A stretch of 64,000 nt of DNA from Candidatus Marinacidobacterales bacterium. GTDB lineage: Bacteria; Acidobacteriota; Vicinamibacteria; Marinacidobacterales; SMYC01. Location: assembly GCA_965224085.1 (NCBI GenBank), contig CBDCYI010000004.1:128001-192000 (forward strand). The letters are read 5' to 3'. This document shows positions 39,990-44,221 of this stretch, one piece after another; positions within the stretch are counted from its first letter, which is position 1, and every line of letters starts with the position of its first letter. A program made the translations under genes and the position numbers. A model generated the notes under the pieces. That model was given only the letters and a program-made list of their open reading frames with translations, was not told where the DNA came from and did not search any database.

Positions 39990-40874
39990 CTACTGGTTCG
40001 GGAAGAAATTCAGCCCCGTCACGAACGAGACGATCACGGCGATGGCGGTGAGCGCGATGCACACGACGGCGAGAAGCAAGTGGTCGCCTCGCTCCGGCTT
40101 TAGCGGGTCGAGAAACTTCGCCACAAAATAGCCGCCCACGAGCCCGCCGAGGTGAGCCTGGTTGTCCACGCCGCGCATAACGATCCCGAAGACCGCGAAC
40201 ATGATGGCGTAGAACTTCATCTGCTGCTCGAGGGCGGAGCTTCCCGTGCGCCGGCTGTAATACCAGAGCGCGCCTAGGAGCCCAAAAACCGAGGCGGACG
40301 CCCCGATGGTCAGCTGCGCTCCCGCGAGACCCACGAAGGATAAAAGCCATCCAAACGGTAAATAAGGATAGATCAGCATCGCCGCGCTGCTGAACGCGAA
40401 GCCGGTGATACATGCCACGGTATAAATGATGATCATCCGGCCCGCGCCGTAATACTCCGCGACGGCGGGCGCGAAGCTTCGGACGATATACATGTTGAAG
40501 CCAATATGCATGATCCCGCCATGAAGCCACCCCGCGCTCAGAACCGTCCACCAGCGGCCGAGCTCGAAGACGGGGATCTGGCCGCTCGCCCCGAAGATAA
40601 AGAGCGCGTTGGTGCTCGGGCTCAGCATGTTCATGAACCCGCCCATCTGGATGCCGGAGGGGTCCACGGCGAGCGTCGCGATGTAGAGGAAGACGGAGCC
40701 GGTGATGACGAGCTTGACGAAGCCCATGTCGCGGCCGAGCGCACGGATGGCGCCCCCGAAACCCCACATGCTGGGATTACTGCGCCCGCAGTTGAAGCAC
40801 GTCTCGTCGTTCACGCCGACGAGCTGGCCGCACGAGGAACAAAGGACGGATCCCGACTTTTGTCGTTCGAACAT
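39990..40874 (-). CDS. Rhomboid intramembrane protease with N-terminal Zn-ribbon
   Basis: CSSC..CFNC, HGGIMHIGFN, GASA, AHLGG. Confidence 0.92.
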   Translation of the reverse strand: MFERQKSGSVLCSSCGQLVGVNDETCFNCGRSNPSMWGFGGAIRALGRDMGFVKLVITGSVFLYIATLAVDPSGIQMGGFMNMLSPSTNALFIFGASGQIPVFELGRWWTVLSAGWLHGGIMHIGFNMYIVRSFAPAVAEYYGAGRMIIIYTVACITGFAFSSAAMLIYPYLPFGWLLSFVGLAGAQLTIGASASVFGLLGALWYYSRRTGSSALEQQMKFYAIMFAVFGIVMRGVDNQAHLGGLVGGYFVAKFLDPLKPERGDHLLLAVVCIALTAIAVIVSFVTGLNFFPNQ

Positions 40875-41024
40875 CTTTGGTGGCATTCTAGCAGGCAAAA
40901 GAGAATTTCACTCGCCTGGGTACTTTCGAGTGAACGAACGATTTCGGTCACTCCCCGATGACCTCCGCCCACGCGGGCGGTGCCCTTGCTGTCAAATTGA
41001 GCTGGTGACTGACAGAATGGTCCA

Positions 41025-41729
41025 ATGAAGACCGATGCGCCAAGCTACCACGGCTATCGATTTCCACCGGAAATCATCAGCCACGCCGTCTGGCTCTACC
41101 ACCGATTCTGCGTGAGCTTTCGAAACGTCGAAGAGCTGCTTGCTCAGCGAGGCATCACGGTTTCCTACGAAGCGATCCGACTTTGGTGCATCAAGTTCGG
41201 GCCGGAATACGCTCGGCGACTGAAGCGTCGGCAGGGTCGCCTTGGTGACACGTGGCACCTGGACGAGGTCTTCATAAAGATACAAGGCGAACGCCAATAC
41301 CTCTGGCGCGCGGTAGACCAAGATGGTGATGTGATTGATATCCTCGTCCAGCCTCGCCGTGATCAGAAAGCCGCCAAACGATTCTTCCGCAAGCTGTTGA
41401 AAGGGCAAGGCCGTCCGCCCTGGCAGCTGGTCACCGACAAACTGAGAAGCTACAGCGCCGCTCACCGCGAGGTCATGCCGTCCGTCGTCCACGACACTGA
41501 CCAGTACAGAAACAACCTAGCCGAAGTCTCGCACGAACCGACGCGACAACGGGAACGACAGATGCGGAAGTTTAAAACTCCTGGGCAGGCGCAACGATTC
41601 TTGACCGTGCATGGACTCGTGCAAAACCTCTTTCGCGTCGGACGGCATTTGTTGCAAGCGCATCATCATCGGGAGCTACGAGACCGCGCTTTCATCGTCT
41701 GGCAGGAGGTAACCTGTGCCGTCCGATGA
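41025..41729 (+). CDS. IS6-family DDE transposase
   Basis: YRFPPEII..AVWLY, WHLDEV, YLWRAVD, VTDKL, NNLAEVSH. Confidence 0.95.
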   Translation: MKTDAPSYHGYRFPPEIISHAVWLYHRFCVSFRNVEELLAQRGITVSYEAIRLWCIKFGPEYARRLKRRQGRLGDTWHLDEVFIKIQGERQYLWRAVDQDGDVIDILVQPRRDQKAAKRFFRKLLKGQGRPPWQLVTDKLRSYSAAHREVMPSVVHDTDQYRNNLAEVSHEPTRQRERQMRKFKTPGQAQRFLTVHGLVQNLFRVGRHLLQAHHHRELRDRAFIVWQEVTCAVR

Positions 41730-41790
41730 GAGCAAAGGAAATCAGCTCGACGCAATAGGTTCGCTCGCTCAACGTCAACTAATAAGAAAC

Positions 41791-43029
41791 TCAGGGTGTA
41801 GCGTTGGCAAGAGGTGTGAGAGTGACGTCAAAACCGAGCTCCCTTAGGCGTCGTGTCATTCGTATTGTGAGCTGTTCCTTGTCGCGTTGATGGAAGTAAT
41901 CGGCACCCAGTTCCCGGTATGGAATCTCATTGTGGAGCATGTAGTAGACGGCGGTGATGATGGAGGCGGCGACGGCGACGACAGCTTTCTTGGGGCCCCG
42001 ACGAGATTTGAGCCGGAAGAACTGGGCACGCAGATAGCTGTCGCGCTTGCGGCTTGCCGCCCAAGCGGCTTGGACAAGAGCGGTCTTGAGCCATGGAGCC
42101 CCTTTGCGGGTTTTCTGAGAAAAGCGTTTACCGGCACTCTCATGAAGCCGTGGGCATAGACCGGCCCAAGAGCGAAGGTGTCCGGCCGTTGGGAATGCCG
42201 AGACATCGGGTCCGATCTCGGCGACGAGAATGGCCGCCGTGGCTTCACTGATGCCCGGGATCGTCACCAGAAGCTCGACGGCCGATCGAAAAGGGCGCAG
42301 GCTCTCTGTGATACGGGATTCGAGCGCGCTCACTGAGGCTTCAAGCTGCTCGATATGATTGAGATGAAAACCCAACAGGAAACGATGATGGTCGGTAACG
42401 TAGCCCTCGAGCGCTGCGCTCAATTCCTGTTCAGTGGCTTTGAGTCGGCTTGAGCCCAGCTCACTCAGCTTGTGAGGGTCGCTTTCTCCCGCAATGATCG
42501 CTCGGAGAATCGCCCGCCCGCTTACTCCCAAAATCGTGCTAATCACGCTCGTCAATTTGATGTTCGCGTCTTCCAACGTCTTTTGAATTCGCTGGGTCTC
42601 CCGAGCGATTTCTCGAACGAACTGCTTTCGCGTTCGGGTCAGCTCTCGCAGTTCCTGGATCGGCGTTGGCGGAACGAAGCTAGCTCGAATGAGACCATGG
42701 GCAAGCAAATCCGCTATCCACAAGGCATCACTGATATCGCTCTTACGACCCGGCATGTTCTTGACGTGGGCCGGTTGTGCCAACACCAACTCAAAATGAC
42801 CTTCGAGCACATGCCACACCGGCTTCCAATACACTCCGGTCGCTTCCATCGCTACAATCGTGCAACCGCACTGCCCCAGCCAATCCAACATTTCCAGCAA
42901 TTCGCTCGTGGCCGTGCCGAACACACGCGTCTCGCGCACCACCTTCCGCTTCGTCGCTACCCGCACGCAAGCCGTAATCGATTTCTGGTGGACGTCCAAT
43001 CCGGCGCATCGCTTATGAACCACTCTCAT
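41791..43029 (-). CDS. IS110-family DEDD recombinase/transposase
   Basis: GLDVH, MEATG, RKSDISDA, TIPGIS, SWAGLCP..ESAGK. Confidence 0.95.
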   Translation of the reverse strand: MRVVHKRCAGLDVHQKSITACVRVATKRKVVRETRVFGTATSELLEMLDWLGQCGCTIVAMEATGVYWKPVWHVLEGHFELVLAQPAHVKNMPGRKSDISDALWIADLLAHGLIRASFVPPTPIQELRELTRTRKQFVREIARETQRIQKTLEDANIKLTSVISTILGVSGRAILRAIIAGESDPHKLSELGSSRLKATEQELSAALEGYVTDHHRFLLGFHLNHIEQLEASVSALESRITESLRPFRSAVELLVTIPGISEATAAILVAEIGPDVSAFPTAGHLRSWAGLCPRLHESAGKRFSQKTRKGAPWLKTALVQAAWAASRKRDSYLRAQFFRLKSRRGPKKAVVAVAASIITAVYYMLHNEIPYRELGADYFHQRDKEQLTIRMTRRLRELGFDVTLTPLANATP

Positions 43030-43044
43030 CGCAGCCTCCTTCAC

Positions 43045-43205
43045 GTCGCACCGGCGTGGAGCCCACGAACTTGTAATCTAATAGACGCGCTCAACTATCC
43101 CAGCTGGAATAGAAAACGCAATTTGGGGTACGCGCAGGACTCCCAGCCAAACTTGACAACGGGCTCAGTCGCACCAACGTTAAGCCGACCTCTGAGCCGG
43201 TGCCA
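43045..43205 (-). ncRNA. Putative IS110 bridge/seek RNA region
   Basis: Contains TTGTCAAGTT (equals target flank plus core) and TATTAG (equals donor end plus part of core). GGCTCAG/CTGAGCC, GCACCGGC/GCCGGTGC and ACGCGC-type complementary segments. Boundaries approximate. Confidence 0.6.
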
Positions 43206-43272
43206 CCTTCACAGACTACCGCGTTTCATTCATTCGGGGTGGCCGTCAGGCCGTGGAAAACTTGACAATACC

Positions 43273-43374
43273 GTCATGGGTCACCTTGTCTTCGGTGCCA
43301 TTCTGGGCGGCAGCTACGGGTGGATCTCGATCCCGGCGTGCTCCTCTTCAGGACTGGCAGCCGAGGCGCCCTGA
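43273..43374 (+). pseudogene. C-terminal fragment of a membrane protein abutting the IS6 IRR
   Basis: VMGHLVFGAILGGSYGW...*; N-terminus missing. Confidence 0.5.
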
Positions 43375-43459
43375 CCCGAGTAGATCGACCCCCTGGACAT
43401 CAGTCCGAGGGGTCGACTTCCCCCTCGAGTTTCGAGGACCAAACACGGTAGAGAAAAAG

Positions 43460-44221
43460 ATGATTCAAAACGAGGACCAACCGACACGACTTCGTTGCTC
43501 AGAAATCTGGGGCGGCATTGGGAATACGGATCTGGATGTTTCTACCAGACCAGTGACGACGAGCTTATTCTCCAGCGCATCCGATAGCGACAGCGGCGGT
43601 GATGTTTATTACTTCAGTGTCTGCTCCCGCAACACGATCGTTCGGATCGCGATGGCCGACGTGATGGGCCACGGACGTGCCGTGAGCACGATGAGTCAGT
43701 GGATGTACACCGCTCTCGTCGAGAGCATGGACAGCATCCATAGTAACGACATACTCGGCGATCTCAACCGCCTTGCCAACGAACGAGGTCATGAAGCCAT
43801 TACCACAGCGGTAGTGTTCAGCTTCCGGGTCGACAACTCCGAGCTGTACCTATCGTATGCGGGGCACCCGCCCGTGTGGATTCGCCGGCACAGGGAGGGC
43901 GTGTGGCAGCCGCTTGCACAAAAGCAACAGACTCAGCCAATGAACCTCCCGCTGGGTATGTTTCCTGGTACCAAATACAGCCAGCAGCAGCTTCGCCTCG
44001 ATTCGGGCGACCGAACTTTGGTGTTCACCGACGGCCTCATAGATGCGCCGAGCAAAAACGGCCAGCCTTTCGGTCACGAGCGGCTTCGAGCCGCTCTGGA
44101 AGAGGCTGGCGGCGGGACTCTGTTCCACCTCAAACAAAGTGTTCTCGCGGCCGTGCGCTCGCATACCGGCGGCTCCCTTGGTCACGACGATTTGACGCTT
44201 ATTGCGGTAGATGTGCATTAG
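43460..44221 (+). CDS. PP2C/SpoIIE-family phosphatase
   Basis: GGDVY, ADVMGHG, AGHPP, FTDGL, DDLT. Confidence 0.9.
   Translation: MIQNEDQPTRLRCSEIWGGIGNTDLDVSTRPVTTSLFSSASDSDSGGDVYYFSVCSRNTIVRIAMADVMGHGRAVSTMSQWMYTALVESMDSIHSNDILGDLNRLANERGHEAITTAVVFSFRVDNSELYLSYAGHPPVWIRRHREGVWQPLAQKQQTQPMNLPLGMFPGTKYSQQQLRLDSGDRTLVFTDGLIDAPSKNGQPFGHERLRAALEEAGGGTLFHLKQSVLAAVRSHTGGSLGHDDLTLIAVDVH

What the first reader, a model, noticed from the sequence alone, without database searches (positions are those of the whole stretch)
41777..43272. IS110 inserted inside the IS6 terminal inverted repeat and carrying its own guide-like copy of that target
Seen: removing 41781-43262 restores the IS6 IRR (CGTCAACT|TGACAATACC), with core AACT at both junctions. 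The IS110 non-coding end contains AACTTGACAA (43150-43159), identical to core plus target flank (43259-43268). It also contains CTAATA (43078-43083), matching the element's other end (41779-41784). A TTAAC segment on the minus strand could pair, with one wobble, to the other target half. The unused IRL reads TGTCAAATT rather than TGTCAAGTT, which mismatches the core. Established: IS110/IS1111 elements use bridge/seek RNAs with target- and donor-binding loops, and IS4321/IS5075 target Tn21-family IRs. Inference: this is an RNA-guided element naturally programmed against the conserved IS6 IR, i.e. a parasite of another IS that probably immobilises it, and a readable natural bridge-RNA/target pair.
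Basis: partly seen in the sequence, partly recalled or inferred. Interest (0 to 1): 0.85.

Follow-up and report, generated by a model that had tools for sequence, protein, structure and literature searches.

The report
Bridge-RNA IS110 aimed at IS6 ends
A small jumping gene of the IS110 type, which uses its own guide RNA to choose where it lands, sits inside the end of another jumping gene (IS6), and its guide segments match that end, so it is a clear natural example of an already known RNA-guided mechanism rather than a new one.

Summary
Window 41781-43262 is a 1482-bp IS110-family element on the minus strand. It splits the right inverted repeat (IRR) of an IS6-family element, with CT at both junctions.

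The 10-mer at 43150-43159 is the element's long target guide. Across 52 relatives its TGTCA positions covary with the left flank (87-94% identity, MI 1.1-1.6 bits). A separate metagenomic set agrees (43 of 55 against about 2 when permuted). CTAATA(GA) at 43078-43085 is the donor guide. The TTAAC segment lies in the short second target guide.

The 12-mer target occurs 40 times in the genome against 0.3 expected, and 31 of those are IS6 IRRs.

- The core is CT, not AACT.
- The last two bases of the 10-mer mirror the element's own end, not the target.
- 10 of 22 insertions in this genome lie outside IS6-type tips.
- Immobilisation of IS6 is not shown.

Additional findings:
- A second IS110-type element ("B") targets the other IS6 end, and a 66-bp derivative of it sits in this window.
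- Miniature derivatives of the first element exist.
- The guide order is reversed relative to IS621.

Verdict: a new member of a known kind.

The parts
40919..40924 (+). Outer tip (GGTACT) of the left inverted repeat (IRL) of the IS6-family element. CT at 40923-40924 is the core used by the second IS110-type element (B).
   Evidence: plain IS6 copies read GGTACTGTCAAATTGA. Here the tip is separated from GTCAAATTGA by an insert.
40925..40990 (-). 66-bp miniature derivative of IS110-type element B inserted in the IS6 IRL, counted with one copy of its CT/AG core. The reverse complement reads TCAATTTGAC-AG-CAAGGGCACC...CACTCGAA-AG-TACC.
   Evidence: its ends resemble the LE start and RE end of the 1.69-kb element B; the same insert is in 13 of 27 full IS6 copies.
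40991..41780 (+). Body of the IS6-family element: inner IRL (GTCAAATTGA, 40991-41000), transposase ORF 41025-41729, and the inner part of the IRR ending ...CAACGTCAACT. CT at 41779-41780 is one copy of the core.
   Evidence: DDE_Tnp_IS240, E 6e-38; 42 BLAST rows in the genome; 27 full-length copies.
41781..43262 (-). IS110-family element 'A', 1482 bp counted with one core copy (CT at 43261-43262). No terminal inverted repeats.
   Evidence: 8 full or near-full and 2 truncated copies at 98-100% identity in the genome, all bounded by ...ACT | ... AAAACT | TGACA.
41791..43029 (-). DEDD recombinase gene, 412 aa from ATG 43029, which aligns with the ATG of relatives. The longest ORF starts at GTG 43044.
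   Evidence: PF01548 and PF02371.
41781..41792 (-). Right end (RE). The reverse complement GAGTTTCTTATT fits the conserved RE motif GTTTCnnnnn followed by the AG core. It is the left-donor sequence read by the donor guide.
43048..43203 (-). Structured core of the predicted bridge RNA (RNA positions 58-213, counted from the LE start at 43260). It has a closing stem P1, a target loop between P2 and P3, and a donor domain closed by P4.
   Evidence: 24 consensus pairs, 19 of them with compensatory changes, in 43 sequences.
43177..43184 (-). Short target guide (RNA CUUAACGU) on the 5' side of the target loop. UUAAC can pair with G+TTGA of the target's right half with one G-U pair, and with one G bulged before the U that faces the core A.
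   Evidence: mean run of complementarity to the cognate right flank is 2.96 against 2.03 for permuted flanks, reached in 0 of 2000 permutations (n=51). In relative L062 it matches 10 of 10.
43150..43159 (-). Long target guide region, RNA UUGUCAAGUU: UUGUCA (43154-43159) equals the left target half, AG (43152-43153) is the core, and UU (43150-43151) mirrors the element's own LE start.
   Evidence: positions 103-107 against the flank, identity 0.87-0.94, MI 1.1-1.6 bits, 52 pairs; replicate, 43 of 55; the two bases after the core.
43078..43085 (-). Donor guide, RNA UCUAUUAG. It equals the RE end plus core (TATTAG matches exactly).
   Evidence: positions 177-181 against the RE end, identity 0.85-1.00, MI 0.6-1.8 bits.
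43193..43260 (-). First ~70 nt of the left end (LE). It lies almost entirely 5' of the guide-bearing core, overlapping only the 5' strand of P1, and carries no guide loop. It is retained in the 138-146-bp miniature derivatives together with the last 76 nt of the RE side (41781-41856).
43263..43272 (+). Outer tip of the IS6 IRR (TGACAATACC, the reverse complement of GGTATTGTCA), cut off from the rest of the repeat by element A.
   Evidence: In one search, contigs of other runs diverge into many different sequences exactly after 43272.

Best explanation
Window 41781-43262 is an intact IS110-group insertion sequence that works by bridge-RNA-guided recombination.

Its 231-nt left end (minus strand, upstream of the recombinase gene) encodes a structured RNA with these guide segments:
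- A long target guide, UUGUCA+AG, identical to the left half of the target plus the core, so it pairs with the bottom strand.
- A short target guide, UUAAC, complementary to the core G plus TTGA on the other side.
- A donor guide, UCUAUUAG, identical to the element's own right end plus the core.

Together the target guides specify TTGTCA-AG-TTGA, which is TCAA-CT-TGACAA on the window's plus strand. That sequence is positions 5-16 of the right inverted repeat of a high-copy IS6-family element, GGTATTGTCAAGTTGA. The element has recombined at the CT/AG core and left one core copy at each junction.

Shown: the family, the boundaries, the covariation of the long target guide and donor guide, the weaker support for the short target guide, the excess of the target in IS6-type ends, and the use of such ends in six genomes.

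Inferred: that the RNA is made, that it is bound by the recombinase, and that the chemistry is that of IS621.

The element prefers IS6-type ends but is not restricted to them. All insertions share CT+TGACA, and about half also have the IS6 tip.
For: 1. PF01548 and PF02371 are present in the ORF. The upstream non-coding end is long and the downstream one about 10 nt.
2. There are 8 full or near-full and 2 truncated copies in the genome, bounded by ...ACT | ... | TGACA.
3. In 52 non-redundant element/site pairs from 80 relatives (52-65% aa identity), RNA positions 103-107 equal the flank in 87-94% (MI 1.1-1.6 bits). Positions 177-181 equal the RE end in 85-100%.
4. Independent metagenomic replicate: the guide 7-mer recurs 103-137 nt upstream in 43 of 55 loci, against a permuted mean of 1.98 and maximum of 8.
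5. Short guide: mean pairing run 2.96 against 2.03, reached in 0 of 2000 permutations, n=51.
6. Consensus fold: 24 pairs, 19 with compensatory changes, in 43 sequences. The two target guides lie on opposite sides of one internal loop.
7. TCAACTTGACAA occurs 40 times against 0.3 expected, and 31 of these are IS6 IRRs. The rest are mostly ends of other elements with IS6-type tips.
8. 12 of 22 insertions (5 of 9 full, 7 of 13 miniature) lie in IS6-type tips, against 60 of 451 CTTGACA sites. Binomial p = 5e-6, though not all events are independent.
9. The same element (94-99% nt) in five other genomes of the order has IS6-type tips at 6 of 7 LE-side flanks.
10. The IRL, whose core reads AA, is never used, whereas IS6-like ends reading TGTCAAGTTG are.
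Against: - No RNA evidence of real weight. Only contigs were available. Two metatranscriptome runs of one study give contigs over 42908-43168, but DNA carry-over cannot be excluded.
- No Rfam family matched; the best E-value was 0.73, for an unrelated snoRNA.
- The single-sequence fold is no more stable than shuffles (z = -0.25).
- The right-donor guide could not be located.
- The short target guide in this element needs a G-U pair and a bulged G. Its covariation with the right flank did not reach MI 0.6 in the column analysis.
- The order of the guides (short, top-strand-pairing guide first) is the reverse of IS621.
- Only 1 of 27 full IS6 copies carries the full element although 25 offer a perfect target.
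- 10 of 22 insertions are not in IS6-type tips.
Confidence: 0.87

Rival explanations
1. The element is guide-directed, but the IS6 repeat is not an evolved target. The guide specifies only a short motif (CT+TGACA plus a few bases), and IS6 ends dominate among good matches simply because IS6 is multi-copy in this genome.
For: - All 22 flanks share TGACA, but 10 of 22 lack an IS6-type tip.
- Only 1 of 27 IS6 copies carries the full element.
- Relatives commonly sit in other repeated sequences, for example the hairpin-like flanks of L064-L066.
- Durrant et al. state that IS110 elements often target repetitive elements (passage).
Against: - The match runs over 12 nt on both sides of the core: 40 genomic copies against 0.3 expected.
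- Insertions are enriched about fourfold in IS6-type tips relative to CTTGACA sites.
- Six of seven LE-side flanks in five other genomes are also IS6-type tips.
- An independent second element is aimed at the same repeat.
Confidence: 0.1
2. The 10-mer in the left end is not a guide. It is a fossil of target DNA, for example captured by an earlier imprecise excision or a tandem insertion.
For: - The 10-mer equals the left junction over 11 nt.
- Tandem arrangements do occur: a miniature copy followed by a full copy at contig C4 27892-29512.
Against: - The same alignment column holds a different sequence in each relative, and that sequence matches that relative's own flank.
- The column sits on one side of a conserved internal loop, with compensatory changes in stems P1 and P4 (P2 and P3 are nearly invariant).
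Confidence: 0.01
3. The main biological role of the insertion is to disable IS6 by splitting its IRR 10 bp from the tip.
For: - The IRR is physically split.
- The other repeat of the same copy is split as well, by the 66-bp derivative of element B.
Against: - Nothing tested here bears on IS6 activity.
- The junction still reads GGTATTGTCAAGTT+TT, so 14 of the first 16 repeat positions are kept.
- IS6 copies with a plain IRL, a miniature-B insert or a full B insert have identical bodies, so insert-bearing copies may still spread or inserts may come and go.
- 25 of 27 IRRs are untouched.
Confidence: 0.15

Closest known systems
IS621 (IS110 group) and its bridge RNA (Durrant et al. 2024, PMC11208160; Hiraizumi et al. 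2024, PMC11208158; passages read)
   Same: - DEDD plus Tnp-domain recombinase.
- Long non-coding left end upstream of the gene.
- Dinucleotide core present at both junctions.
- One long guide identical to the left half plus core (pairs with the bottom strand) and one short guide complementary to core plus right half.
- A separate guide for the element's own right end.
- The target is a repeated sequence.
   Different: - Here the short top-strand guide lies 5' and the long guide 3' in the target loop. In IS621 the LTG (A50-U58) precedes the RTG (G77-G80).
- The core reads AG in the gene's orientation (CT on the other strand), against CT for IS621.
- The two bases after the core in the long guide mirror the element's own left end. 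In IS621 the handshake bases follow the short guide.
- The right-donor guide was not found.
- The recombinase is 412 aa.
- The target is an IS6 inverted repeat, not a REP.
[quoted passage not shown]
   Same: A DEDD-recombinase insertion sequence whose specific target is the terminal inverted repeat of another transposable element.
   Different: - Different subgroup. [quoted passage not shown] Here it is upstream, and I saw no sub-terminal repeats (not searched for).
- The target is an IS6-family insertion sequence, not a Tn3-family transposon.
seekRNA elements ISEc11 (IS1111 group) and ISEc21 (IS110 group) (Siddiquee et al. 2024, PMC11187229; passages)
   Same: [quoted passage not shown] Natural re-direction between relatives is seen as guide replacement.
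   Different: That paper states that the top-strand complement comes first in IS1111 seekRNAs and second in the IS110 type. This element has the upstream non-coding region of the IS110 type but the guide order described there for the IS1111 type.
ISPpu9 / ISPpu10 of Pseudomonas putida (search listings and abstract starts only)
   Same: Multi-copy IS110 elements that sit in one repeated sequence family of their host.
   Different: Their targets are REP or intergenic repeats, not ends of another insertion sequence.

Membership tests
IS110 family, IS110 group (bridge-RNA elements) | Recombinase with an N-terminal DEDD/RuvC-like domain (PF01548) and a C-terminal Tnp domain (PF02371) | tested here: met
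   PF01548 E 4.4e-28 (residues 14-160); PF02371 E 1.8e-23 (residues 257-340).
IS110 family, IS110 group (bridge-RNA elements) | Long non-coding end upstream of the gene and a short one downstream | tested here: met
   231 nt between the LE start (43260) and ATG 43029; about 10 nt after the stop codon.
IS110 family, IS110 group (bridge-RNA elements) | No terminal inverted repeats, and a short core sequence present at both junctions instead of a target duplication | tested here: met
   CT (AG) at both junctions in this copy and in relatives. The ends AATAAG... and ...GGAAAA are not inverted repeats.
IS110 family, IS110 group (bridge-RNA elements) | Guide segment in the non-coding RNA that covaries with the left target flank | tested here: met
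   52 pairs, identity 0.87-0.94, MI 1.1-1.6 bits; 43 of 55 against a permuted mean of 1.98.
IS110 family, IS110 group (bridge-RNA elements) | Guide segment that covaries with the element's own right end (donor) | tested here: met
   positions 177-181, identity 0.85-1.00, MI 0.6-1.8 bits.
IS110 family, IS110 group (bridge-RNA elements) | Second, short guides complementary to the right target half and the right donor half | tested here: inconclusive
   The right-target guide is supported only by a run-length test (2.96 against 2.03, 0 of 2000). The right-donor guide was not located.
IS110 family, IS110 group (bridge-RNA elements) | IS621-type order within the loop: long bottom-strand guide 5', short top-strand guide 3' | tested here: not met
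   Searches place the short guide 5' of the long one. The IS621 positions come from the passage. This argues against 'IS621-like in detail', not against family membership.
IS110 family, IS110 group (bridge-RNA elements) | Transcription of the RNA, a circular intermediate, and binding to the recombinase | not testable with these tools
   Only assembled contigs were available. A natural tandem copy mimics the circle junction.
Rfam RNA families | Match to a curated covariance model | tested here: not met
   no match with E below 0.7 in 40500-43800. I do not know whether Rfam 15 holds a bridge-RNA family.
IS6 family (the target element) | DDE transposase of the IS240/IS26 type | tested here: met
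   PF13610, E 6.3e-38.
IS6 family (the target element) | Short terminal inverted repeats starting with GG | tested here: met
   GGTACTGTCAAATTGA (left) and GGTATTGTCAAGTTGA (right), 14 of 16 positions alike.
IS6 family (the target element) | 8-bp target duplication (a feature recalled from memory, not from a call) | tested here: not met
   0 of 22 copies have identical 8-mers outside the two tips.
IS1111 group (IS4321/IS5075-like elements that target inverted repeats) | Sub-terminal inverted repeats of 11-13 bp and the long non-coding region downstream of the gene (passage) | tested here: not met
   The non-coding region is upstream. It resembles these elements in its choice of target but is not a member of that group.

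The most novel reading that the evidence does not exclude
IS6-type inverted repeats may serve as a shared landing pad for at least two separate bridge-RNA lineages, one for each end of the element.

Element A (412 aa) uses the core AG at repeat positions 11-12, which only the IRR has. Element B (475 aa, 38-39% identical over the N-terminal half) uses CT at positions 5-6, which only the IRL has. These are exactly the two positions at which the repeats of this IS6 differ within the first 16 bases.

Both lineages have produced guide-less miniature derivatives. Element A is found with IS6-type tips in six genomes of two families. This would fit hitch-hiking on IS6 (a safe site plus a vehicle) or mutual control of activity, rather than chance use of an abundant repeat.
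Probability: 0.25. Interest if true: 0.7.

Novelty: new member of a known kind. Interest (0 to 1): 0.5.

Why it matters
This is a clean natural guide-target pair for a bridge-RNA recombinase outside the IS621 clade:
- The guides can be read directly from the sequence.
- They are confirmed by covariation in two independent sets of relatives.
- The genome supplies its own specificity experiment: 25 perfect but empty targets, a one-base core mismatch (the IRL) that is never used, partial-match insertions, and guide-less miniature copies that must be moved in trans.

The reversed order of long and short guides, in a clade with thousands of members, is useful for anyone modelling or engineering these RNAs.

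Biologically it extends the known habit of DEDD-recombinase elements of landing in the ends of other transposons to the IS6 family. In this genome two different elements address the two ends. It does not reveal a new mechanism.

Tried and rejected
Rfam scan of 40500-43800: only two chance-level snoRNA hits.

Single-sequence fold of the left end: z = -0.25, so the structure rests on the comparative fold only.

Column-wise covariation of the RNA with the right flank: nothing meaningful above MI 0.6. The short guide emerged only when anchored on the TGGTGC motif with a flexible register.

Right-donor guide: inspected. Candidates such as CCCCAAAUUG, and the UCCACG shared by the LE start and the 3' strand region of P4, do not covary. 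Left open.

Closer relatives: the protein search showed 75-78% identical proteins in metagenomes.

Target duplications of IS6: 0 of 22.

IS6 body haplotypes against repeat state: intermingled, so nothing can be said on whether insert-bearing IS6 copies still move.

Sequencing runs: all were contigs.
- Two RNA-library runs of one study cover 42908-43168, and one of them also covers 43193-43272 (partly from a miniature copy). This does not show transcription.
- No joint informative for excision or circles appeared. The one joint listed (42856 to 42988) has 25 letters on its shorter side and low depth.

Literature: searches returned nothing describing an IS110-family element in an IS6-family inverted repeat. 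This covers only the held library and those terms.

Full report
WHAT IS THERE

The window is contig C4 128001-192000 of a 6.87-Mb genome in 12 contigs. Between a rhomboid-family gene (39990-40898, minus) and a SpoIIE-type phosphatase ORF (43253-44221) lies one IS6-family element, and both of its inverted repeats are interrupted.

Its right repeat reads ...CAACGTCAACT (to 41780) and TGACAATACC (43263-43272). Between them sit 1482 bp (41781-43262) that carry a 412-aa ORF on the minus strand with PF01548 and PF02371, the two domains of IS110-family recombinases.

The restored repeat is not a guess. 25 of 27 full-length IS6 copies in the genome read CAACGTCAACT directly followed by TGACAATACC.

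COPIES AND BOUNDARIES

The genome holds 8 full or near-full and 2 truncated copies of the element at 98-100% identity. It also holds 15 stretches of 99-146 bp (most 138-146; two are truncated or tandem) that consist of the last 76 bases of the gene-distal side joined to the first 70 bases of the left end. In every copy whose left-end-side junction is preserved, the flank there begins TGACA, and most of the other flanks end in AACT.

Relatives from other phyla share only AG, in the gene's orientation, at both junctions. Their right ends follow the motif GTTTCnnnnnAG. The core is therefore the dinucleotide CT on the window's plus strand.

THE GUIDES

I fetched 80 relatives (52-65% aa identity) from named genome records, aligned the 300 nt upstream of their genes and located their right ends.

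In 52 non-redundant element/site pairs:
- RNA positions 103-107 (UGUCA of UUGUCAAGUU, window 43150-43159) are identical to flank positions -5 to -1 in 87-94% of pairs, with 1.1-1.6 bits of mutual information.
- Positions 177-181 (within UCUAUUAG, window 43078-43085) follow the element's own right end in 85-100%.

A second, independent set from metagenome contigs gave the same result without an alignment. The 7-mer at the guide position recurs 103-137 nt upstream in 43 of 55 loci, against a mean of 1.98 and a maximum of 8 when guides are permuted among loci.

The two bases after the core in the long guide equal the element's own left-end start in 46 and 45 of 52. Where the left-end start and the target differ, they equal the left-end start in 37 of 41 and 33 of 38, and never the target. 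So the 10-mer parses as six target bases, two core bases and two bases that mirror the donor.

The 8-nt variable segment between GGTCGG and TGGTGC (CUUAACGU here, window 43177-43184) is complementary to core plus right flank in many relatives, 10 of 10 in L062. The mean run of pairing is 2.96 against 2.03 for permuted flanks, reached in 0 of 2000 permutations, n = 51. In this element UUAAC pairs with G+TTGA with one G-U pair, and one G is bulged before the U that faces the core A. Several relatives show the same extra purine.

STRUCTURE

The single sequence does not fold better than shuffles. The consensus fold of 43 sequences gives 24 pairs, 19 of them with compensatory changes (the same stems appear). 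The elements are:
- a closing stem P1 (RNA 58-65 with 206-213);
- a short stem P2 and a conserved hairpin P3, which enclose an internal loop with the short guide on the 5' side and the long guide on the 3' side;
- a stem P4 that closes the domain holding the donor guide.

In IS621 the long guide (A50-U58) precedes the short one (G77-G80) (passage). Siddiquee et al. state that the top-strand complement comes first in IS1111-type seekRNAs and second in the IS110 type (passage). This clade has the upstream non-coding region of the IS110 type but the other order.

I could not find the right-donor guide. No Rfam family matches.

THE TARGET

The guides together specify TCAA-CT-TGACAA on the plus strand. 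This 12-mer occurs 40 times in the genome against 0.3 expected from composition. 31 occurrences are right repeats of this IS6, and most of the rest are ends of other repeated elements with the same tip.

By a fixed criterion (left-end-side flank TGACA[AG]TAC or TGACAGCAATGG), 5 of 9 full copies and 7 of 13 miniature copies sit in IS6-type tips. Only 60 of 451 free CTTGACA sites are of that kind (p = 5e-6). Some events share flanks and are not independent.

The other 10 insertions share only CT+TGACA.

The same element, 94-99% identical in DNA, occurs in five other genomes of the order, including another family. It has IS6-type tips at 6 of 7 left-end-side flanks.

The left repeat of this IS6 reads GTCAAATTGA, so its core would be AA. 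It is never occupied by this element, whereas divergent IS6-like ends that read TGTCAAGTTG are. That fits a requirement for the core G.

A SECOND ELEMENT AT THE OTHER END

The left repeat of the window's IS6 is GGTACT (40919-40924), then 66 bp (40925-40990), then GTCAAATTGA. The insert has CT at both junctions. Its ends resemble those of a 1.69-kb element ("B"), which is present in 7 full and 3 truncated copies. B's 475-aa product is 38-39% identical to the N-terminal half of this recombinase.

- 8 of 10 B copies show the left junction TCAAnTTGAC-AG-CAATGG.
- 9 of 10 show the right junction ...GTCGAA-AG-TACC.

B therefore lies inside GGTA-CT-GTCAA of IS6-type repeats.

B's left end has the same motif frame as element A. 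AGGTACGA stands at the short-guide place, and UUUGACAG+CA at the long-guide place. These match GTACC and TTTGAC-AG of the left repeat.

Among 27 full IS6 copies, the left repeat is plain in 11, carries the 66-bp derivative in 13, carries full B in 2, and is otherwise in 1.

The two repeats of this IS6 differ at positions 5 and 12 of the first 16. Those are the positions that give B its CT core in the left repeat only and give A its AG core in the right repeat only.

For B the guide assignment is by analogy with A and was not tested by covariation.

WHAT IS NOT SHOWN

Expression. Only contigs were available. Two RNA-library runs of one study cover 42908-43168, which does not prove transcription.

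Immobilisation of IS6. The junction still keeps GGTATTGTCAAGTT. IS6 copies with plain and interrupted left repeats have identical bodies. 0 of 22 copies show 8-bp duplications. None of this decides the matter.

COMPARISON AND VERDICT

The element meets the family features tested: the domains, the end asymmetry, the core at both junctions, and the target and donor guides that covary. It differs from IS621 in guide order.

Landing in the terminal repeat of another transposon is known for IS4321/IS5075 of the IS1111 group. I saw that paper only as a title in the reference lists.

My searches found no report of an IS110-type element in IS6-family repeats.

I file it as a new member of a known kind, with the two-element arrangement at the IS6 ends as the part most worth following.

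Noticed in passing
window 40925-40990: A 66-bp insert with CT at both junctions splits the left inverted repeat of the IS6 copy. Its ends resemble those of a second IS110-type element (B). The same insert is in 13 of 27 full IS6 copies.
   Followed up: yes
own genome, e.g. contig C9 576971-578647, C5 677639-679326, C5 1401638-1403325: Element B is about 1.69 kb with a 475-aa IS110-type product, in 7 full and 3 truncated copies at about 99.9% identity. Every copy with a preserved junction lies inside GGTA-CT-GTCAA of an IS6-type repeat. Its left end carries GGUAC and UUUGACAG at the guide positions defined for element A.
   Followed up: partly
own genome, 15 places, e.g. contig C9 751922-752067, C11 283237-283374: Miniature derivatives of element A (most 138-146 bp). 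They combine the last 76 bases of the gene-distal side with the first 70 bases of the left end and carry no guide loops. They are flanked by ...CT | TGACA like the full copies, so they are presumably moved in trans.
   Followed up: partly
own genome, contig C4 27892-29512: A miniature copy directly followed by a full copy in the same orientation. The junction between them has the same sequence as the expected circle junction, which would confound a PCR test for circles.
   Followed up: no
own genome, contig C9 777607-778047 and about 40 other places: A further high-copy repeat: 377 bases at 99-100% identity, then a gap of about 95 bases, then 71 bases. In this copy it lies between ...CAACGTCAA of an IS6 right repeat and a miniature copy of element A. 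By eye it seems to encode a small transposase-like protein on the other strand; this was not tested.
   Followed up: no
own genome, contig C9 107158-107247 and C11 614737-614826: Pairs of IS6-type tips (GGTATTGTCAAGTTG) in inverted orientation about 90 bp apart. They look like miniature elements derived from an IS6-type element, and each offers two targets for element A.
   Followed up: no
27 full IS6 copies in the own genome: None of 22 testable copies has an 8-bp direct repeat outside its tips. Copies with different states of the left repeat have identical bodies.
   Followed up: partly
L032 (G005 contig C3 4289143-4293378) and L047: Element A is 99.5% and 96.4% identical in DNA in a genome of another family of the same order, which suggests recent horizontal spread.
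   Followed up: partly
window 43253-44221: The listed ORF with a SpoIIE phosphatase domain starts inside the IS6 repeat tip. Its real start, or whether the IS6 truncated it, was not examined.
   Followed up: no
window 42908-43168: Contigs from two RNA-library runs (sponge metatranscriptomes, one study) cover the 5' part of the recombinase gene and most of the guide-bearing left end at 95-100% identity.
   Followed up: partly
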